UHGV virus genome: UHGV-0042151
Origin: a virus
Length of the DNA: 35,904 nt
Reading direction: 5' to 3' (one strand)
Made by a program: the position numbers and the translations under genes. Positions within the stretch are counted from its first letter, which is position 1, and every line of letters begins with the position of its first letter. Of the stretch, positions 1 to 34,925 are shown piece by piece. The notes below the pieces were generated by a model. That model worked only from the letters and a program-made list of their open reading frames with translations. It did no database searches and was not told the origin of the DNA.

Positions 1-49
1 ATGTTTGCAGTTTCAAGGCATTTCCTTAAATCTGATGGTGATGCCCTGT

Positions 50-3691: not shown

Positions 3692-3706
3692 TTACCCGTT
3701 AGGTAA
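3692..3706. promoter_or_regulatory. palindromic site TTACC-N5-GGTAA (distal operator of early-left promoter)
   Basis: TTACCCGTTAGGTAA; 20 bp upstream of the -35; centre 62 bp from site 3630..3644. Confidence 0.5.
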
Positions 3707-3786
3707 TCGAATAGGCAATAAAAAAGCCCCCCCAAAGCGGCGGTTCTTCTTTAAAAAAAAATTTTTTTTTTTTTTTTTTTTTTTTT

Positions 3787-3883
3787 NNNNNNNNNNNNNN
3801 NNNNNNNNNNNNNNNNNNNNNNNNNNNNNNNNNNNNNNNNNNNNNNNNNNNNNNNNNNNNNNNNNNNNNNNNNNNNNNNNNNN
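3787..3883. other. unresolved sequence (97 N) preceded by A9-T25 homopolymer tract
   Basis: Run of N at 3787-3883; track ORFs spanning it are artefacts (X residues). Confidence 0.95.
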
Positions 3884-3896
3884 GAAAAATATGGTT

Positions 3897-4481
3897 TTAT
3901 TGTTTGTTTTTTTCGTTATGGTTGATGACAAATTCAATGTAACTTTCGATCTTTGCTTTCTCGGTTTCGGGTAACAATGCGTAGCGCGAGCGATCATAGT
4001 TGATGGTCGCAGGGTCGTGCGGGTGAATCAGTAATTCATAGCCGTGACGCCCGAATGCGGATGCAACATTCTCCAGGGTGGAAATGGAAACGCTGACCTC
4101 ATTGTTTAACAGGCGGCTGATTGTCACCTGGGCTACGCCGGATGCGCGGTGAAGTTTTCCCTGTGTTGAAAGGTCGCGGCTTTCGCTCATCCAGCGTTCC
4201 AGGTTGTGAGCCGCCAGCTGGCCAATGTCGCTTGGGCCGACAGGCTGAAAACCTTCCTGAGAAAGCGAGCGATCGATATCAAGCCAGTTACGGGGTTTAT
4301 TGGCGGCAGCTTCAATTTTTCGTGCAACCTGGTCGCCGATAACCTTCTTGCCAAGAGCCCAGCGGTTTACCAGATTTGCCTGAGTTCCAAGTTTTTCAGC
4401 CATCCGCGTCTGAACACCATTGAATTCACGGTCGATCAAGTCGTTGAGATTTTGCCTGCGGACGTCCTGGATACTTTTCAT
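3897..4481 (-). CDS. phage repressor-like protein with two tandem XRE/CI-type HTH domains, no S24 peptidase domain
   Basis: 194 aa; HTH-like segments 'MAEKLGTQANLVNRWALGKK' and 'ASGVAQVTISRLLNNEVSVSISTLENVA'; divergent from Cro-like gene; no Ala-Gly/Ser-Lys autocleavage module seen. Confidence 0.65.
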   Translation of the reverse strand: MKSIQDVRRQNLNDLIDREFNGVQTRMAEKLGTQANLVNRWALGKKVIGDQVARKIEAAANKPRNWLDIDRSLSQEGFQPVGPSDIGQLAAHNLERWMSESRDLSTQGKLHRASGVAQVTISRLLNNEVSVSISTLENVASAFGRHGYELLIHPHDPATINYDRSRYALLPETEKAKIESYIEFVINHNEKNKQ

Positions 4482-4536
4482 TTTCTGGAAAATCGCCTCA
4501 TATATGAATCAGTAGATGATTCAATTTAAAGCAATA

Positions 4537-4551
4537 TTACCCAACAGGTAA
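4537..4551. promoter_or_regulatory. palindromic site TTACC-N5-GGTAA in repressor/cro intergenic region
   Basis: TTACCCAACAGGTAA; additional half-sites GGTAA (4563-4567) and TTACC (4586-4590) nearby. Confidence 0.5.
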
Positions 4552-4635
4552 ATGCACCCCACAGGTAACTATCCTTGATTTTTGTTACCTTATGGGTGAA
4601 TATTTATTATCTGAAATAAATATCAGGCAATAGCT

Positions 4636-4866
4636 ATGAGCGATAACGGACATTTCGATTTCAAAAAGCACTGGCTTGCACTTACTCCGGATGAGCGTGA
4701 AGCCTTCGCACAGGAAGCCGGAACGACGAGTCACTATATCCAGACTCACTTAACAGGTAAGCGCAAAATGCCAGGTAAGGTATTGATGAATGGGCTTTTT
4801 AAAGCCTGTAAAACAAGACAATGGCTGCGCTCAAAAGCAGAATTGGCATACTTCTTCTACTCATGA
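4636..4866 (+). CDS. Cro-like small HTH DNA-binding protein
   Basis: 76 aa, divergent to repressor; 'LTPDEREAFAQEAGTTSHYIQ' HTH-like; ends 24 nt before N-run. Confidence 0.5.
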   Translation: MSDNGHFDFKKHWLALTPDEREAFAQEAGTTSHYIQTHLTGKRKMPGKVLMNGLFKACKTRQWLRSKAELAYFFYS

Positions 4867-4889
4867 TATCCAGCCACAACCCTCTGTAN

Positions 4890-5024
4890 NNNNNNNNNNN
4901 NNNNNNNNNNNNNNNNNNNNNNNNNNNNNNNNNNNNNNNNNNNNNNNNNNNNNNNNNNNNNNNNNNNNNNNNNNNNNNNNNNNNNNNNNNNNNNNNNNNN
5001 NNNNNNNNNNNNNNNNNNNNNNNN
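4890..5024. other. unresolved sequence (135 N)
   Basis: Run of N at 4890-5024. Confidence 0.95.
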
Positions 5025-5046
5025 GGCGGTCTTTTCATATCTATTC

Positions 5047-5061
5047 GTACCTCAAAGGTAA
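5047..5061. promoter_or_regulatory. palindromic site, imperfect (GTACC-N5-GGTAA)
   Basis: GTACCTCAAAGGTAA, 9/10 half-site match; 80 nt upstream of ATG 5142. Confidence 0.35.
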
Positions 5062-5141
5062 TAAAAAACCAAATCTGGTTGATCTTTTTTTTGTGTCAGC
5101 ACAAAATGACCGTAATCCCAATACTAATAACAGGGCTTACC

Positions 5142-5342
5142 ATGGAAATCATTACACGTATTGATGCCGCAAAGCGCGGACTTAAACGCTACTACACCGG
5201 AAAAACATGTAAGCACGGACATGACAGTGAACGCTGGGTTTACAACGGACACTGTGTTGAGTGCACCATGGAATCAAACCGTCGTATCAGGGCAGAGATT
5301 AAGCAGATCATGATTAATTCCTCCCCACAACATTCAAGCTGA
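5142..5342 (+). CDS. small Cys/His-rich zinc-finger-like protein (putative regulator)
   Basis: 66 aa 'CKHGH...CVEC'; alternative in-frame ATG at 5106; upstream region partly lost in N-run. Confidence 0.45.
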   Translation: MEIITRIDAAKRGLKRYYTGKTCKHGHDSERWVYNGHCVECTMESNRRIRAEIKQIMINSSPQHSS

Positions 5343-31886: not shown

Positions 31887-31909
31887 CAAAAAAGCCCGCA
31901 GCGCGGGCT
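31887..31909 (-). terminator. rho-independent terminator (minus strand)
   Basis: AGCCCGC-gcu-GCGGGCU then U6 on minus strand, starting at the stop codon of the 31908 gene. Confidence 0.5.
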
Positions 31910-32348
31910 ATTCTTCTTCATCATTAAAAAGCGGATTGTTGTTTCCATCTGATGAAAGGAAAGGTATGTGTTCTCTTGAAAATCCAACAATGACAATTTC
32001 ATTATCATTTTTTGCATAATGAATGCATTCATTAGAATGCCTTCCGCCAGGGTTGAAATTTAAGTTAATGGTATAATTCTTAAATGTGTTTGGATACCAT
32101 GTTGGCCCACAATGATAATGCCAATAATTCTCTTGCTCATAATTGTCTGAGCCGGGAATTTTATCATGGTTATCATCAACCCACGAGGGCTTGTTTTTTC
32201 CAACAAGCGCCCTTCCATTGGCAACATCCTCTAAAAAACTTTGTATGATTTTTATTTCATCATCAGTAAGGAAAGGTCCGTCTACAGCGAAAGGGGTGTT
32301 GCTTTCCCCATGTAGAAAACTATTAGATATTCTAATGTTAAACTTCAA
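31908..32348 (-). CDS. hypothetical AT-rich protein (146 aa), second gene of two-gene operon
   Basis: TTG start 32348 with AGGAG SD 6 nt upstream (the track's ATG 32489 start has no SD and overlaps the small ORF); no recognisable domain. Confidence 0.4.
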   Translation of the reverse strand: MKFNIRISNSFLHGESNTPFAVDGPFLTDDEIKIIQSFLEDVANGRALVGKNKPSWVDDNHDKIPGSDNYEQENYWHYHCGPTWYPNTFKNYTINLNFNPGGRHSNECIHYAKNDNEIVIVGFSREHIPFLSSDGNNNPLFNDEEE

Positions 32349-32368
32349 GGAAAACTCCTGATGTGCTT

Positions 32369-32536
32369 CTATTTGGAGCGAAATGCCGCCTTGAAGTCGC
32401 TGAAAGATGTTCCTGTCTGGTAAACCATATCCTTGTCGCGCTCTTTGCTTGCGCGGCCAAGCATAACTTTTCCAATGACATCCCAGCATTGCTTGGCTTG
32501 TTCATTGTGCTGAGTACGATTTTTCAACGCTGTCAT
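32369..32536 (-). CDS. small hypothetical protein (55 aa), first gene of two-gene operon
   Basis: AGGAGG SD 6 nt before ATG 32536; 'MTALKNRTQHNEQAKQCWDVIGKVMLGRASKERDKDMVYQTGTSFSDFKAAFRSK'. Confidence 0.45.
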   Translation of the reverse strand: MTALKNRTQHNEQAKQCWDVIGKVMLGRASKERDKDMVYQTGTSFSDFKAAFRSK

Positions 32537-32548
32537 ATCGCGCCTCCT

Positions 32549-32563
32549 TTACCTTTAAGGTAA
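32549..32563. promoter_or_regulatory. palindromic site TTACC-N5-GGTAA at promoter of two-gene operon
   Basis: Minus-strand TTGCAG-17-TACTAT promoter-like element abuts the site; site abuts SD. Confidence 0.5.
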
Positions 32564-32635: not shown

Positions 32636-33322
32636 TCAGAAGAACCCAGCCTTGTCGTTGATGTACTCCGCGTGGGTCTGGATATCACGCAGGCATTTGC
32701 TCACACCAACAATGTAGCAGAACATGGTGGTCAGCTCCGCCGCCGCGCCCGATACGTCGTGCCCGTCTTCCTGTAACTGGTTCAGCAGATTCATCAGCAG
32801 TGAGTTCTCCGTCAGGCCGAGAACACCAGACGGAGAATGAATCAGGCTGCGGTAGCCGGGCTTCAGTGGGGCACTGTAGGTTTTGTTCTCTATCTTCATT
32901 GCCTGCATCACTGCTGATGCTGTGGCGTTGGCTACCTGGTCGGCAACTATCTTTATGCGTTCTTCCTGCGGGAGCGAGTTTTTAATGTAACTTCCGGTGC
33001 GGCGGATCTGAGGAAGAACCTCACCTGTAACCCATTTACGAAAGCGGTAGGGGATAGTGCCTGGTGTCACTGCGTCGCGGCAGCGGAGGATCAGTGTGTA
33101 GAGGCCTGACTCGTTGATAATATTGGTTTCACCTTGACGGCCTAAGTTAAATTTAGCCCTTTCATCATCATCAAGAGATTTTATTGACATAGTGGGGTTT
33201 GTCAGTTGAAGAGCTTTAATAACGTCTTTGGCAACAAACCAAGGATTTCCATCAATAACAATGGCTCGAATGGTGGCTTCTGATTCAAAATGAAAAACAG
33301 ATGGGGTTACGTTAGCAGTCAT
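32636..33322 (-). CDS. Bro-N domain antirepressor-like protein
   Basis: N-terminus 'IRAIVIDGNPWFVAKDVIKALQL...GLYTLILR' fits Bro-N; C-terminal domain homologous to the 34473..34730 product; AGGTGA SD then ATG 33322. Confidence 0.65.
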   Translation of the reverse strand: MTANVTPSVFHFESEATIRAIVIDGNPWFVAKDVIKALQLTNPTMSIKSLDDDERAKFNLGRQGETNIINESGLYTLILRCRDAVTPGTIPYRFRKWVTGEVLPQIRRTGSYIKNSLPQEERIKIVADQVANATASAVMQAMKIENKTYSAPLKPGYRSLIHSPSGVLGLTENSLLMNLLNQLQEDGHDVSGAAAELTTMFCYIVGVSKCLRDIQTHAEYINDKAGFF

Positions 33323-33481
33323 AGTGATCACCTTTTAGTATGGTTAATCACCACCTGAGGTGCAAATCTCGTTGGTGGTGAGACGTACAGGGTTTGCACT
33401 ACCGGCTAAAAGGACCCGGCGCACCTTTCGGTGCCCCTGCACGTCCCACCATAATTCTGGCATGACTGTGCTATACGCATA

Positions 33482-33503
33482 AAAAAACCACGTCTGGCGT
33501 GGT
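33482..33503 (-). terminator. intrinsic terminator inside Bro-N upstream region (possible sRNA or attenuator 3' end)
   Basis: Minus strand ACCACG-CCAGA-CGTGGT followed by U7. Confidence 0.4.
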
Positions 33504-33593
33504 ATGCGCCTTTTAGTAATCCGGGGTGCAAATCCCGGCACTGGATTTTGCCAGTGCCCGATTACTATGGCACAAGAGGAGTGCGATGTAAAT

Positions 33594-33608
33594 TTACCGA
33601 AAAGGTAA
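33594..33608. promoter_or_regulatory. palindromic site TTACC-N5-GGTAA
   Basis: TTACCGAAAAGGTAA; about 90 bp upstream (minus sense) of the 33482 terminator. Confidence 0.45.
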
Positions 33609-33686
33609 TGATAAGCGCGAAAAAACATTAAAATCAACCGTATTTGGTTGATTGCGTTTAACGCTTGATCACCTGAAAGCAAGATA

Positions 33687-33701
33687 TTACCTTTAAGGTA
33701 A
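33687..33701. promoter_or_regulatory. palindromic site TTACC-N5-GGTAA upstream of 33722 gene
   Basis: TTACCTTTAAGGTAA, 20 nt before ATG 33722, just 5' of GAGGA SD. Confidence 0.5.
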
Positions 33702-33721
33702 TGTTATTGTGAGGAAAAGCA

Positions 33722-34450
33722 ATGGAAGTTTTCTGGATAGTTGTTGGTGTGGTTGCGGTGATTATTTACGTTATCAACCAGAACAAGACTAAGATCTCTG
33801 ATCGTACGGTCGTTAATCAGAACAAAACGATAAAGACCGAAGATGGGGAGATAACGATTAATCGTACACAGGTGATAGAGCACACATCTACTCAGTTTCA
33901 AAAAACTGGAGGTAACGCGCCTGATATTTCCGTACCTCCTGCTTATGATAGTGCGGTAATCCAGACATATTATAAACAGCAGGAGTTAGCAAAAGAGAGG
34001 CAACTGATTCAGCCAAAGCCGTTTACAGCTGAGCTTCCACCTGGAGTGTCAACGCGTCCGGCATATCATGGAAGATTCCCTGGTGATGACATATCGTCTC
34101 AGTCATTTAAAAAAGCACCTCAGGCAGTATCAGAGCCAGCAAGAATATCTTCTGTATCGCCGCCAAAAGAAGAATCAGCTAACAGAGTTTCAAGCGGTAG
34201 CAAGCAGTGCTTGCGATGCAGAATAAACCTTCCATATGAAAAATTCAGGAAATCGTCAAAAAATCCGGATGGATTGACTAAGTGGTGTGCAAGGTGTCTC
34301 GATGGCCCAAAGAATACACGTCATATGAAGTGGTGCCCAATTTGTAATGTCCGCAGAAAACGAACCAGCTTTTACCCTAATAATCAAAATGCGGACGGCT
34401 TAATGGCATGGTGCAAAACGTGCTGGGACGAGCACAAAGCGAAACGATAG
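33722..34450 (+). CDS. membrane-anchored protein with duplicated C-terminal zinc-ribbon (CxxC...WCxxC) modules
   Basis: N-terminal TM helix 'FWIVVGVVAVIIYVI'; 'CLRCRIN...WCARCLD' and 'WCPICNV...WCKTCWD'. Confidence 0.5.
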   Translation: MEVFWIVVGVVAVIIYVINQNKTKISDRTVVNQNKTIKTEDGEITINRTQVIEHTSTQFQKTGGNAPDISVPPAYDSAVIQTYYKQQELAKERQLIQPKPFTAELPPGVSTRPAYHGRFPGDDISSQSFKKAPQAVSEPARISSVSPPKEESANRVSSGSKQCLRCRINLPYEKFRKSSKNPDGLTKWCARCLDGPKNTRHMKWCPICNVRRKRTSFYPNNQNADGLMAWCKTCWDEHKAKR

Positions 34451-34474
34451 GCCGCTCTTGCGGCCTTTAAATTT
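34450..34474. terminator. bidirectional intrinsic terminator between convergent genes
   Basis: GGCCGC-tctt-GCGGCC followed by TTTAAATTT. Confidence 0.5.
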
Positions 34475-34730
34475 ACCGGGTTTGTTTTCGTAATTGTTCG
34501 GCACAATAGTCGAGATGTGTTTGCAGATCCTGCATAGACATCTGTGAGCTGGTGACGTAGTTAATCAGTGCAGTCAGTTCGGCAAGTGGGCCATCGACAT
34601 TAAATCCATCCTTATCGAGATCCCGGAGTAATTTCATCAAGTGCGATCCCTCCACCAGTGACCTGACGCCTCCCGGCGTGTGAATCCTTTCGGTAAATCC
34701 GTCTTCCAGTGGATAGTGATACTGCTGCAT
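34473..34730 (-). CDS. small antirepressor-like protein (85 aa), SOS-regulated
   Basis: GGAGAA SD then ATG 34730; homologous to C-terminal domain of Bro-N protein ('SLVEGSHLMKLLRDLDKDGFNVDGPLAELT' vs 'GLTENSLLMNLLNQLQEDGHDVSGAAAELT'); LexA box 22 nt upstream. Confidence 0.55.
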   Translation of the reverse strand: MQQYHYPLEDGFTERIHTPGGVRSLVEGSHLMKLLRDLDKDGFNVDGPLAELTALINYVTSSQMSMQDLQTHLDYCAEQLRKQTR

Positions 34731-34751
34731 CTTATCTTCTCCATGCAATAA

Positions 34752-34767
34752 CTGTATATTTATACAG
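34752..34767. promoter_or_regulatory. LexA (SOS) box
   Basis: CTGTATATTTATACAG = CTGT-N8-ACAG with AT-rich core; extended AACTGTATATTTATACAGTA matches 18/20 of the consensus TACTGTATATATATACAGTA. Confidence 0.6.
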
Positions 34768-34806
34768 TAGCAAATAATTTGTTTGCTATCCAGCACGTTT
34801 TGCAAA

Positions 34807-34821
34807 TTACCTGAAAGGTAA
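34807..34821. promoter_or_regulatory. palindromic site TTACC-N5-GGTAA between antirepressor and tailspike genes
   Basis: TTACCTGAAAGGTAA. Confidence 0.45.
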
Positions 34822-34925
34822 TATCTATTCGTATTCACAGTCTTTCTATCCATATATGGTTTTTCAGGTAATAGAATAACCAGATATGCGGCGCAACGGG
34901 TGCTGCGACTATCTGGAGATTTAAC

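What the first reader, a model, noticed from the sequence alone, without database searches (positions are those of the whole stretch)
33722..34450. Membrane-anchored protein with a duplicated zinc-ribbon module, under palindrome control
The 242-aa product has one N-terminal transmembrane helix, a Ser/Pro-rich linker and two repeats of a C-x2-C...W-C-x2-C motif. It is convergent with the LexA-controlled antirepressor and 20 nt downstream of a palindromic site. I know of no characterised phage protein with this architecture. It could be a membrane-tethered nucleic-acid-binding or exclusion factor.
Basis: seen in the sequence. Interest (0 to 1): 0.5.

Follow-up and report, generated by a model that had tools for sequence, protein, structure and literature searches.

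The report
Membrane-anchored zinc-ribbon protein tied to prophage immunity
This is a real but uncharacterised prophage gene for an inner-membrane-anchored protein with two zinc-ribbon modules; its relatives always sit with, or under the control of, the phage's immunity repressor, which makes it a good untested candidate for a factor that keeps out other phages.

Summary
ORF 33722-34450 (+) encodes 242 aa: an N-terminal transmembrane helix, a conserved segment next to the membrane, a fast-evolving Ser/Pro-rich linker, and two Cys4 zinc ribbons (net charge +14). Both ends are under strong purifying selection.

The window is an epsilon15/phiV10-like E. coli prophage. The gene lies in a self-contained cassette (about 33620-34472) that phiV10 lacks.

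The upstream palindrome is one of 11 exact TTACC-N5-GGTAA sites in the window (under 0.5 expected). Two of them lie between the repressor and cro-like genes. In 8 of 9 clades the site holds the gene's -10-like hexamer, and it changes to TTAACC-N5-GGTTAA in Providencia phages.

New here: in four lambdoid prophage lineages, full-length homologs (27-33% identity) start 17-20 bp after the CI repressor gene, which is the lambda rexAB position.

The zinc ribbons resemble the Stc1-like modules of viral HNH/beta-beta-alpha-Me nucleases but lack a catalytic histidine. No family of known function matches.

Best guess (about 0.4): a membrane-tethered, nucleic-acid-binding exclusion or abortive-infection factor, analogous to RexAB, AbiP and PdpSau. 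Function, and whether the repressor turns it off or merely limits it, are untested.

The parts
33620..34472 (+). Self-contained accessory cassette (moron): hairpin, promoter/operator, RBS, ORF and terminator. The left edge is approximate.
   Evidence: Alignment with phiV10 and TL-2011b. phiV10 lacks this block and joins the backbone directly, whereas TL-2011b has it. 129 of 5426 complete E. coli genomes carry at least 80% of 33560-34520, and 523 match some part of it.
33632..33653 (.). 8-bp-stem hairpin AATCAACC-N6-GGTTGATT at the left edge of the cassette. It may insulate or terminate transcription.
   Evidence: Terminator-like scan. It is conserved in the E. coli-clade loci. Its function was not tested.
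33665..33670 (+). -35-like hexamer TTGATC.
   Evidence: It lies 17 nt upstream of TACCTT. The same TTGnnn-16..18-TACCTT/TAACCT layout is found in 8 of 9 clades. This is an inference, because the generic sigma-70 scan did not call it.
33686..33702 (.). Operator palindrome ATTACCTTTAAGGTAAT, a copy of the phage's dispersed immunity operator. It contains the -10-like TACCTT at 33688-33693.
   Evidence: enrichment: 11 exact sites against under 0.5 expected. (the same motif lies between the HTH_3 repressor and the cro-like gene). (position conserved, sequence co-varies in the Providencia clade).
33711..33715 (+). Ribosome-binding site GAGGA, 7 nt before the ATG.
   Evidence: Read directly from the sequence. 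Most homologous loci have a purine-rich stretch at the same place.
33722..34450 (+). Coding sequence, 242 aa, a member of PHROG 6762.
   Evidence: PHROG 6762 match over the full length, E 6.6e-148. 33 homologs in Enterobacterales. Purifying selection.
33728..33784 (+). Transmembrane helix (aa 3-21), predicted N-terminus out and C-terminus in. V7 and G9 are invariant; E2, F4 and W5 are nearly invariant.
   Evidence: Topology is inferred from the positive-inside rule (K22, K24 and R28 follow the helix), from the need for reduced Cys4 sites, and from cytoplasmic relatives of the C-terminal domain.
33785..33886 (+). Conserved segment next to the membrane (aa 22-55, NQNKTK..TIKTEDGEI.I.RTQV), predicted as a beta-hairpin.
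   Evidence: Conservation. Cross-genus dN is 0.15-0.22 with synonymous sites saturated. AlphaFold strands at 29-39 and 42-52, but with low confidence, pLDDT about 50. The motif persists in distant relatives.
33887..34195 (+). Variable, disordered linker rich in Ser, Pro, Gln and Ala (aa 56-158).
   Evidence: dN is 0.8-0.9 between genera and omega is 0.7 against TL-2011b. Its length varies by about 60 residues among homologs. pLDDT is about 40-60.
34196..34309 (+). Zinc ribbon 1 (aa 159-196): C163-x2-C166...W188-C189-x2-C192.
   Evidence: AlphaFold pLDDT above 90. Net charge +6.
34310..34447 (+). Zinc ribbon 2 (aa 197-242): C205-x2-C208, the basic strand RRKRTSFY, W230-C231-x2-C234, then a C-terminal helix.
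   Evidence: Net charge +8.
34449..34466 (.). GC-rich hairpin AGGCCGC-TCTT-GCGGCCT. It is the terminator of the ORF and probably also of the convergent small gene.
   Evidence: Terminator scan. It lies inside the cassette that phiV10 lacks.
33594..33608 (.). Neighbouring operator at the minus-strand promoter of the C4 RNA and Bro-N antirepressor operon (context).
   Evidence: C4 RNA at 33371-33456 (77.8 bits against a threshold of 45) and isrK at 33481-33557 (67.4 against 50). The site is conserved in phiV10.
34473..34730 (-). Convergent small gene (85 aa, epsilon15 gp19/phiV10 gp24-like, similar to the C-terminal part of Ant). It has a LexA box at 34752-34767 and an operator at 34807-34821 upstream (context).

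Best explanation
Shown. The ORF is a real, selectively maintained gene. It encodes a single-pass inner-membrane protein made of five parts: a 2-residue external N-terminus, one conserved transmembrane helix, a conserved cytoplasmic segment next to the membrane, a long disordered tether, and a compact, highly basic C-terminal domain of two Cys4 zinc ribbons. The zinc ribbons are of the Stc1-like type found beside viral HNH/beta-beta-alpha-Me nucleases, without nuclease catalytic residues. The gene belongs to an uncharacterised family of prophages of Gammaproteobacteria whose genetics are tied to the immunity repressor.

- In lambdoid prophages it is the second gene of the cI operon, starting 17-20 bp after cI.
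- In epsilon15/phiV10-like prophages such as this one it is a stand-alone cassette between the ejection-protein genes and the tailspike. The -10 region of its promoter lies inside a copy of the phage's own immunity operator.

Inferred mechanism. The protein acts at the cytoplasmic face of the inner membrane as a tethered nucleic-acid-binding exclusion or abortive-infection-type factor. The zinc-ribbon tandem, held on a flexible tether, would capture DNA or RNA (or a nucleoprotein) of an incoming or competing phage. The conserved transmembrane and membrane-proximal module would then either block entry or replication at the membrane, or oligomerise and compromise the membrane. This would be a one-polypeptide analogue of lambda RexA (DNA binder) plus RexB (membrane protein), and of AbiP and PdpSau.

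Open point. The operator geometry in this window suggests that the repressor limits or shuts off the promoter, with a burst on derepression. Whether there is useful expression in the lysogen is not known.
For: Real gene.
- Cross-genus dN is 0.1-0.2 in the transmembrane, membrane-proximal and zinc domains, while synonymous sites are saturated.
- Against TL-2011b, omega is 0.11-0.13 at the ends and 0.7 in the linker.
- There are 33 homologs with all 8 Cys invariant.

Architecture.
-. The zinc tandem has pLDDT 88.6 when modelled alone.

Cytoplasmic, nucleic-acid-associated zinc module.
- PHROG hits to modules of 'endonuclease VII', 'HNH endonuclease', 'DNA primase' and Lar-like families.
- 44 BFVD matches at E<=1e-3, several of them named HNH endonuclease, beta-beta-alpha-Me endonuclease, Endo VII or Stc1 domain.
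- The same tandem sits at the C-terminus of a Mokosh MkoC-like helicase, and repeats occur in a PbeA-like helicase.
- Net charge is +14 over 82 residues, with a conserved RRKR strand.

Link to immunity.
- Operator enrichment and the same motif in the repressor/cro intergenic region.
- A conserved promoter/operator layout and co-variation in Providencia phages.
- cI-ORF pairs with 17-20 bp gaps in L091 (also phage phiARM81mr), L098, L099 and L101. These CI proteins are only 23-38% identical to one another. In the two loci checked (L091 and L099) a terminator hairpin follows the ORF, and L091 then has a PL-like promoter.
- Another lineage places the gene in the island between cI and the early-left operon, next to an AAA_15/21 ATPase and a methylase.

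Accessory nature and position.
- phiV10 and many relatives lack the gene.
- It sits where P22 keeps sieA and immI (PMC10883804).

Precedents.
- AbiP and PdpSau are membrane-anchored, basic, nucleic-acid-binding abortive-infection proteins (PMC10127798).

More than an anchor.
- The transmembrane helix itself is conserved (V7 and G9 invariant; E2, F4 and W5 nearly so), which suggests specific contacts within the membrane.
Against: - No experiment and no homology to any protein of known function. PADLOC, NCBIfam and Pfam give nothing above threshold.
- Nucleic-acid binding is inferred from charge and from the domains the module accompanies elsewhere. Stc1-type tandem zinc fingers can also mediate protein-protein contacts.
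- In this window the operator overlaps the -10 and start region. On standard geometry this means repression by the prophage repressor, which fits poorly with protection of a lysogen. This contrasts with co-transcription with cI in the lambdoid relatives.
- The arguments from position (rexAB, sieA) are guilt by association. Such hotspots also hold genes with other roles.
- Identity of the homologs does not track the identity of the ejection proteins. This argues against a SieA-like, ejection-protein-specific block, though not against exclusion in general.
- The structure of the membrane-proximal segment is predicted only at low confidence.
Confidence: 0.4

Rival explanations
1. Modulator of the lysis-lysogeny switch. 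The protein acts on the immunity circuit itself rather than on other phages. For example, it could hold a regulator (CI, an antirepressor, LexA/RecA or a host factor) at the membrane, or bias the switch as lambda RexA does independently of RexB.
For: - The cI-ORF pair is conserved through deep divergence.
- In this window the gene lies between two antirepressor-type genes and carries the immunity operator.
- RexA, at the same position in lambda, biases the switch towards lytic growth (PMC11077077 and bioRxiv 10.1101/2021.04.19.439022).
- Stc1-type tandem zinc fingers are protein-interaction modules in the founding member (my own knowledge of S. pombe Stc1).
Against: - The gene is dispensable. 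phiV10, ZX5 and most relatives have the same repressor and antirepressor set without it.
- No interaction evidence exists.
- The zinc domain is far more conserved than the repressors it would have to recognise (CI 23-38% identical).
Confidence: 0.2
2. Early lytic helper. The gene is derepressed on infection or induction, and the protein tethers phage (or host) DNA to the inner membrane to organise replication or packaging, or to disable the host nucleoid, as phi29 p16.7 does for phi29 DNA.
For: - The operator overlaps the -10 and start region of the promoter, as at the other early transcription units of this phage.
- The protein combines a membrane anchor with a basic putative DNA-binding domain.
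- p16.7 is a precedent (PMC4974454).
Against: - In four lambdoid lineages the gene is co-transcribed with cI, an operon that is shut off in lytic growth.
- The gene is absent from many close relatives that grow lytically.
Confidence: 0.15
3. Membrane-anchored protein adaptor or counter-defence factor. The zinc tandem binds a host or rival protein (for example a nuclease or helicase) rather than nucleic acid, and removes it to the membrane.
For: - Weak similarity to Lar-like restriction-alleviation proteins (phrog_5558, E 5e-08) and to Pfam Stc1.
Against: - These structural matches are generic small zinc-knuckle similarities with low Z.
- The best-scoring matches by profile and by fold that carry a name are mostly nucleases.
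- The extreme positive charge fits nucleic acid better.
Confidence: 0.15
4. Not a functional gene: a chance ORF or a decaying remnant.
For: TL-2011b annotates the region only as a misc_feature.
Against: - The TL-2011b ORF is intact.
- There are full-length homologs from E. coli to Aeromonas with invariant Cys and strong purifying selection.
- RBS, promoter/operator and terminator are all in place.
Confidence: 0.02

Closest known systems
Lambda RexA/RexB exclusion system
   Same: Lambdoid homologs occupy the same slot: directly after cI on the same strand. In the two loci whose downstream sequence was checked (L091, L099) a terminator hairpin comes before the early-left genes. Functionally, Rex pairs a non-specific DNA-binding sensor with a membrane protein (PMC11077077), which are the two properties combined in this one polypeptide.
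   Different: There is no sequence similarity, and PADLOC gives no hit. This is one gene rather than two, with one transmembrane helix rather than RexB's multi-pass protein and zinc ribbons rather than the RexA fold. In this window the gene is not next to the repressor but in the tailspike-proximal region, with its own operator-bearing promoter.
AbiP (Lactococcus) and PdpSau (S. aureus prophages)
   Same: Both have an N-terminal transmembrane anchor and a positively charged cytoplasmic domain that binds, or is predicted to bind, nucleic acid. Both are accessory genes of a prophage or mobile element, and both cause abortive infection (PMC10127798).
   Different: Their cytoplasmic domain is OB-fold-like, not a zinc-ribbon tandem. 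There is no sequence relationship. They lack the conserved membrane-proximal motif and the long disordered tether. An abortive-infection activity of the present family is untested.
P22 SieA (and the P22 immI region)
   Same: [quoted passage not shown] Homologs in epsilon15-like prophages lie in the same place (PMC10883804).
   Different: SieA has three predicted transmembrane segments and no zinc domain, and it is not homologous. SieA is specific for particular ejection proteins, whereas identity of the ORF242 homologs does not follow that of the ejection proteins.
phi29 p16.7
   Same: An N-terminal membrane anchor plus a C-terminal DNA-binding part, and an early phage gene (PMC4974454).
   Different: Different fold, different host and different phage type. 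p16.7 serves protein-primed replication. The present family is accessory and linked to cI.
Stc1-like zinc ribbons of viral HNH/beta-beta-alpha-Me endonucleases (Pfam PF12898; Hpy99I and PacI folds)
   Same: The same C-x2-C...(D-G)...C-x2-C module with strands followed by a short helix. Profile and fold matches. Multi-repeat relatives pass the Pfam Stc1 threshold.
   Different: This protein scores 21.2 bits against a threshold of 24.8. There is no conserved His/Asn catalytic set: the position after the conserved Asp is Gly, and the residue after the last CxxC is Leu or Trp. So it is not a nuclease. A membrane anchor with this module has not been described.

Membership tests
PHROG 6762 (unknown function) | Full-length match to the family profile | tested here: met
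   E 6.6e-148, residues 1-242 against profile positions 1-242 of 242. The family carries no functional annotation.
Pfam PF12898 Stc1 domain | Whole-protein score at or above the gathering threshold of 24.8 bits | tested here: not met
   21.2 bits, E 4.4e-4. 25 of 30 family members give weak hits, the best at E 1.2e-4. Distant multi-repeat relatives do pass, for example P0036 at 60.9 bits.
HNH / endonuclease VII (beta-beta-alpha-Me nucleases) | Beta-beta-alpha fold stabilised by Cys4 zinc | tested here: inconclusive
HNH / endonuclease VII (beta-beta-alpha-Me nucleases) | Catalytic His (general base) and a metal-binding Asn/His | tested here: not met
   No invariant His or Asn lies inside either repeat. 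The invariant residues are Cys, Trp, Asp-Gly, Lys and Arg. The only nearly invariant His (H201) lies in the segment between the two repeats.
Lambda RexAB-type exclusion system | Sequence homology to RexA or RexB | tested here: not met
   No PADLOC hit at E<=1 apart from a meaningless TniQ match at 0.13. No PHROG match to Rex families.
Lambda RexAB-type exclusion system | Encoded directly downstream of cI and co-transcribed with it | tested here: inconclusive
   Met for lambdoid homologs in L091 (phiARM81mr), L098, L099 and L101, with gaps of 17-20 bp. Not met for the copy in this window, which is about 29 kb from the repressor gene with its own promoter.
Lambda RexAB-type exclusion system | Excludes other phages from lysogens | not testable with these tools
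   Needs plating, membrane-potential and DNA-entry assays.
AbiP/PdpSau-like membrane-anchored abortive-infection proteins | N-terminal transmembrane anchor with a basic cytoplasmic domain | tested here: met
   Helix at 3-21, then K22, K24 and R28. The C-terminal 82 residues have net charge +14.
AbiP/PdpSau-like membrane-anchored abortive-infection proteins | OB-fold-like nucleic-acid-binding domain, nucleic-acid binding and an abortive-infection phenotype | tested here: not met
   The domain here is a zinc-ribbon tandem, not an OB fold. Binding and phenotype cannot be tested here.
P22 SieA | Multi-pass (three transmembrane segments) inner-membrane protein homologous to SieA | tested here: not met
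   One hydrophobic segment only. No PHROG or Pfam match to SieA. Only the genomic position is similar.
Zinc-binding anti-sigma factors (ZAS) | N-terminal cytoplasmic H-x3-C-x2-C zinc motif followed by a transmembrane segment | tested here: not met
   The order is reversed here (transmembrane segment first, zinc sites last) and the sites are C-x2-C...C-x2-C. The definition of the ZAS motif is from my own knowledge.
Moron (autonomous accessory transcription unit in a prophage) | Absent from close relatives between otherwise adjacent genes, with its own promoter and terminator | tested here: met
   phiV10 lacks the block. A promoter/operator layout and a terminator hairpin are present. Orientation and position differ between clades. 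Transcription itself was not measured.

The most novel reading that the evidence does not exclude
The family could be a membrane-tethered regulator of the immunity switch. The zinc-ribbon domain would be kept inactive at the membrane on a protease-accessible tether and released, or re-targeted, under particular cell states. It would then act on DNA or on the repressor and antirepressor circuit. This would couple prophage induction or maintenance to membrane or physiological signals, and it would explain both the ancient cI-ORF pairing and the immunity operator on the stand-alone copies.
Probability: 0.08. Interest if true: 0.85.

Novelty: new variant of a known kind. Interest (0 to 1): 0.55.

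Why it matters
Genes placed just after cI or beside the tailspike are where temperate phages keep functions that decide which other phages may infect a lysogen. This family is widespread, from E. coli, Salmonella, Serratia and Providencia to Aeromonas, and it is present in about 2% of complete E. coli genomes. It is annotated everywhere as hypothetical and is missed by current defence-system catalogues.

If it is an exclusion or abortive-infection factor, it would add a compact single-gene design to the known defences: a membrane anchor, a tether and zinc-ribbon sensors. It would also give a first function to the Stc1-like zinc-ribbon module, which recurs in viral nucleases and in defence-type helicases.

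If instead it acts on the switch, it would be a new accessory layer of lysogeny control. Either answer can be reached with simple genetics.

Tried and rejected
- Pfam, NCBIfam and PADLOC scans of the protein gave nothing above threshold.
- A sequence search of the zinc domain against PDB chains gave only a chance RING match at E 0.98.
- Foldseek of the full-length model against PDB gave nothing at E<=0.001. The afdb50 library was not available.
- The generic sigma-70 scan found no plus-strand promoter upstream of the ORF. The promoter proposed here rests on a layout conserved across clades, not on a consensus score.
- The genome-contig scan returned only two loci.
- Literature searches found no paper on this family: epsilon15/phiV10 operators, Stc1 in phages, Uetakevirus exclusion. 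The ZX5 paper confirms repressor and antirepressor roles in a relative that lacks the gene.
- Considered and rejected: cleavable signal peptide with a periplasmic Cys-rich domain. The N-terminal region is acidic (ME-), there is no AxA cleavage site, the flank after the helix is positive, and cytoplasmic relatives of the domain exist.
- Considered and rejected: active HNH nuclease. The catalytic residues are absent.
- Considered and rejected: partner relationship between the 86-aa gene upstream in L094/L095 and the window's small 85-aa gene. BLAST finds no similarity, and the 86-aa product is a hydrophobic membrane protein.
- Considered and rejected: LexA control of the ORF itself. The only good LexA box belongs to the convergent small gene.
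Full report
**What is there**

The window is an epsilon15/phiV10-like prophage of E. coli. The 961-base stretch around the gene (33560-34520) is 100% identical to E. coli MS 198-1, and the gene region (33300-34900) is 94% identical to phage TL-2011b. ORF 33722..34450 (+) encodes 242 aa. It has a GAGGA ribosome-binding site 7 nt upstream and a GC-rich terminator hairpin at 34449-34466.

- One hydrophobic segment at the N-terminus: Kyte-Doolittle windows above 1.6 occur only at residues 1-21, and AlphaFold predicts a helix at 3-21 with pLDDT about 90.
- A linker (61-160) with 14 Ser and 13 Pro, predicted disordered.
- Two C-x2-C...W-C-x2-C repeats, with Cys at 163/166/189/192 and 205/208/231/234.

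One feature was not noted before. Residues 22-55, next to the membrane, are as conserved as the zinc domain.

**It is a real gene**

A search found 33 homologs in E. coli, Superficieibacter, Enterobacter, Citrobacter, Salmonella, Serratia, Providencia, Buttiauxella and Pectobacterium. In the 30-sequence alignment, all eight Cys, W188, W230, D183-G184 and D225 are invariant.

Between genera, synonymous sites are saturated. Non-synonymous divergence is only 0.1-0.2 in the transmembrane, membrane-proximal and zinc parts, but 0.8-0.9 in the linker. Against TL-2011b, omega is 0.11-0.13 at the ends and 0.7 in the linker. TL-2011b carries an intact copy, although its record marks it only as a misc_feature.

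**It is an accessory cassette**

phiV10 and many relatives match the flanks but lack the gene. The three-way alignment shows a block of about 850 bp (about 33620-34472) inserted between the promoter region of the C4-RNA/antirepressor operon and the stop codon of the small convergent gene. The block carries a hairpin, a promoter region, the palindrome, the RBS, the ORF and the terminator.

Of 5426 complete E. coli genomes, 129 carry at least 80% of the region, and 523 match some part of it.

In other genera the homolog lies in the same variable region, between the last large ejection-type gene and the small gene, antirepressor and tailspike. There its orientation relative to those neighbours is the opposite of that in E. 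coli, so the cassette has moved as a unit.

**The neighbours**

To the left, on the minus strand and divergent from the ORF, Rfam finds a C4 antisense RNA (33371-33456, 77.8 bits against 45), an isrK-like RNA (33481-33557) and the C4 target sites. A Bro-N antirepressor follows at 32636..33331. This is a P1-type immI arrangement.

To the right, convergent, is a small gene similar to the C-terminal part of Ant. A perfect LexA box (34752-34767) lies inside the mechanical 126-aa ORF. The real gene is therefore probably the 85-aa form (34473..34730) annotated in phiV10.

**The palindrome is the phage's immunity operator**

TTACC-N5-GGTAA occurs 11 times exactly in the window (14 times with up to one mismatch), against 0.46 expected. 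None of 100 shuffles comes close.

The sites lie at transcription-unit starts:
- two in the intergenic region between the HTH_3 repressor gene (3897..4481, minus strand) and a small cro-like ORF;
- two before the leftward early genes;
- others before the replication-distal genes and near the packaging and structural genes;
- one each before the YafO-like gene, the C4/ant operon, this ORF and the LexA-controlled small gene.

This scattered layout resembles P1's C1 operators (my own knowledge).

Upstream of the ORF, 8 of 9 diverged clades share one layout: TTGnnn, then 16-18 nt, then TACCTT or TAACCT. The -10-like hexamer lies inside the left half of the palindrome, 26-37 nt before the ATG.

In the Providencia clade the palindrome is TTAACC-N5-GGTTAA. 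Those phages carry further copies of that variant and none of the TTACC type. The site has therefore changed together with the phage's operator type. This is good evidence that the phage's own regulator acts on this promoter.

Two steps are inferences. That the binding protein is the HTH_3 repressor follows from position. That binding represses follows from geometry. The sign is uncertain because an operator over a promoter can also belong to a lysogenic promoter (lambda OR3 at PRM; my own knowledge).

**The zinc-ribbon domain**

Modelled alone, the domain folds confidently (pLDDT 88.6), each repeat forming strands followed by a helix. The evidence on its relatives is as follows.
- Sequence profiles: the single module matches modules of phage 'endonuclease VII', 'HNH endonuclease', 'DNA primase' and Lar-like PHROGs. 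It matches Pfam Stc1 just below threshold (21.2 against 24.8 bits; 25 of 30 members hit weakly).
- No nuclease activity expected: no His/Asn catalytic set is conserved.
- Wider distribution: a profile search of 1.84 billion cluster representatives finds 3185 proteins with the module. Many have 4-10 repeats. One is a Mokosh MkoC-like helicase ending in the same tandem, and one is a PbeA-like helicase with repeats. A stand-alone 85-aa tandem also exists.

These soluble relatives, the +14 charge, the positive residues after the helix and the need for reduced Cys4 sites all place the domain in the cytoplasm. The N-terminus would be outside.

**The key contextual result**

The same profile search recovers many 180-240-aa proteins with the full architecture: helix, the N-x-N-K/R-T...T-I-x-T-x-D-G motif, a linker and the tandem.

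Five of these were traced to their contigs. In four lineages the gene starts 17-20 bp after the stop codon of an S24-type CI repressor, on the same strand and divergent from cro. The four are Aeromonas (including the isolated phage phiARM81mr, gene p22) and loci L098, L099 and L101. In L091 and L099 a terminator hairpin follows the gene, and L091 then has a PL-like promoter before the early-left genes, which include an exonuclease and RecT. L098 and L101 show no such hairpin directly after the gene.

These homologs are 27-33% identical to ORF242 over the full length (E 1e-22 to 1e-37). Their CI proteins are only 23-38% identical to each other, so the pair is old. In the fifth lineage the gene sits in the island between cI and the early-left operon, together with an AAA_15/21 ATPase and a DNA methylase.

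This is the position of rexAB in lambda. The family therefore has two habitats, and both are tied to the immunity repressor: inside its operon, or under its operator.

**How it most likely works**

Shown: architecture, selection, accessory status, and the link to immunity.

Inferred: the basic zinc tandem binds nucleic acid, and the protein works at the inner face of the membrane. Its role would be exclusion or abortive infection, by analogy with three precedents.
- RexA (a non-specific DNA binder) acting with RexB (a membrane protein) (PMC11077077).
- AbiP and PdpSau (an N-terminal anchor plus a basic nucleic-acid-binding domain; PMC10127798).
- SieA, an inner-membrane protein encoded at the equivalent place in P22 (PMC10883804).

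The conservation of the transmembrane helix (V7 and G9 invariant; E2, F4 and W5 nearly so) and of the membrane-proximal motif suggests specific contacts or oligomerisation, not mere anchoring.

Identity of the homologs does not follow that of the ejection proteins. A SieA-like, ejection-protein-specific block is therefore less likely than a generic target such as nucleic acid or a host component.

I put this explanation at about 0.4. Its main weakness is the operator over the -10 region in this window, which suggests repression in the lysogen.

**Rivals**

- A modulator of the lysis-lysogeny switch (0.2). This fits the old cI pairing and RexA's second role. Against it, the gene is dispensable in relatives with the same circuit.
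- An early lytic DNA anchor like phi29 p16.7 (0.15; PMC4974454). This fits the operator geometry but not co-transcription with cI.
- A protein adaptor or counter-defence factor (0.15). This fits the Stc1 and Lar-like similarity, but the best-scoring matches that carry a name are mostly nucleases.
- A spurious ORF (0.02). This is contradicted by conservation.

**Novelty and score**

No member of the family has been studied. Every database name is 'hypothetical protein', and PHROG 6762 has no function assigned.

The general design has precedents, so I rate it a new variant of a known kind rather than categorically new. Interest is 0.55. The family is widespread, linked to cI, missed by defence catalogues and easy to test, but the function is not yet shown.

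Noticed in passing
window 3630, 3692, 4537, 6975, 7037, 11901, 15109, 32549, 33594, 33687, 34807 (exact); 4585, 5047, 11919 (one mismatch): The palindrome (A/T)TTACC-N5-GGTAA(T) is dispersed over the whole prophage at the starts of transcription units. This is a P1-like scattered-operator layout for an epsilon15/phiV10-like phage. The sites often come in pairs 18-62 bp apart. I found no description of it in the papers searched.
   Followed up: partly
window 33371-33570 (- strand) and 32636-33331 (-): A P1/P7-type immI module: C4 antisense RNA (77.8 bits), an isrK-like RNA and the a1/b1 target sites lie upstream of a Bro-N antirepressor. The minus-strand promoter (TTGATT-18-TATCAT) abuts the operator at 33594-33608. 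phiV10 has TTGCAA-17-TATATT followed by an operator at the same place.
   Followed up: partly
window 34473-34853 (-): The mechanical 126-aa ORF contains the LexA box (34752-34767) and an operator (34807-34821). The true gene is probably the 85-aa form starting at 34730. Its product is about 40% identical to the C-terminal third of the Bro-N Ant. It may therefore be a minimal antirepressor under dual control by LexA and the repressor.
   Followed up: partly
window 31908-32489 (-) with operator at 32549-32563: Another accessory gene (PHROG 5954; its TL-2011b counterpart is annotated as a YafO-family toxin) is preceded by an operator identical in its 15-bp core to the one before ORF242 (TTACCTTTAAGGTAA).
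   Followed up: no
L065-L071, about 55-70 nt upstream of the homolog's ATG: The Superficieibacter, Enterobacter, Citrobacter and Salmonella clades carry an extra palindrome, TGTGAC(A/G)TGTCAC, just upstream of the -35-like hexamer. It may be a second regulator site. The E. coli cassette lacks it.
   Followed up: no
P0107 (1237 aa) and P0035 (2046 aa), from the profile search: A Mokosh MkoC-like SF1 helicase ends in the same zinc-ribbon tandem. A PbeA-like ResIII/DEAD helicase with HEAT repeats and winged-helix domains carries about 10 such modules. The module appears to be a recurrent accessory of defence-type helicases.
   Followed up: partly
L094 and L095, 6738-6998: In one lambdoid lineage the homolog is preceded, with a 2-bp gap, by an 86-aa hydrophobic protein with a signal-peptide-like N-terminus. 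This may be a two-gene operon. The 86-aa protein is unrelated to the window's 85-aa gene.
   Followed up: partly
window 3740-3884 and 4890-5025: Runs of N (masked or unresolved sequence), the first preceded by long A and T homopolymer tracts, interrupt the immunity region. ORF calls there (for example 3692..3997 and 4790..5164) are unreliable.
   Followed up: no
L001 (TL-2011b) 4048-5136: The RefSeq record of TL-2011b marks the region as a misc_feature ('similar to hypothetical protein'), although it contains an intact 242-aa ORF with 12 non-synonymous nucleotide differences from the window copy.
   Followed up: yes
L103 (Yersinia phage YeP5) 1900-2634: The isolated Yersinia phages YeP4, YeP5 and YeP6 encode a 244-aa hypothetical protein. 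Its C-terminal part matches the zinc tandem of the Aeromonas family member P0197 (35.8% identity over 62% of that protein). It is convergent with a large gene, as in the epsilon15-like layout.
   Followed up: no
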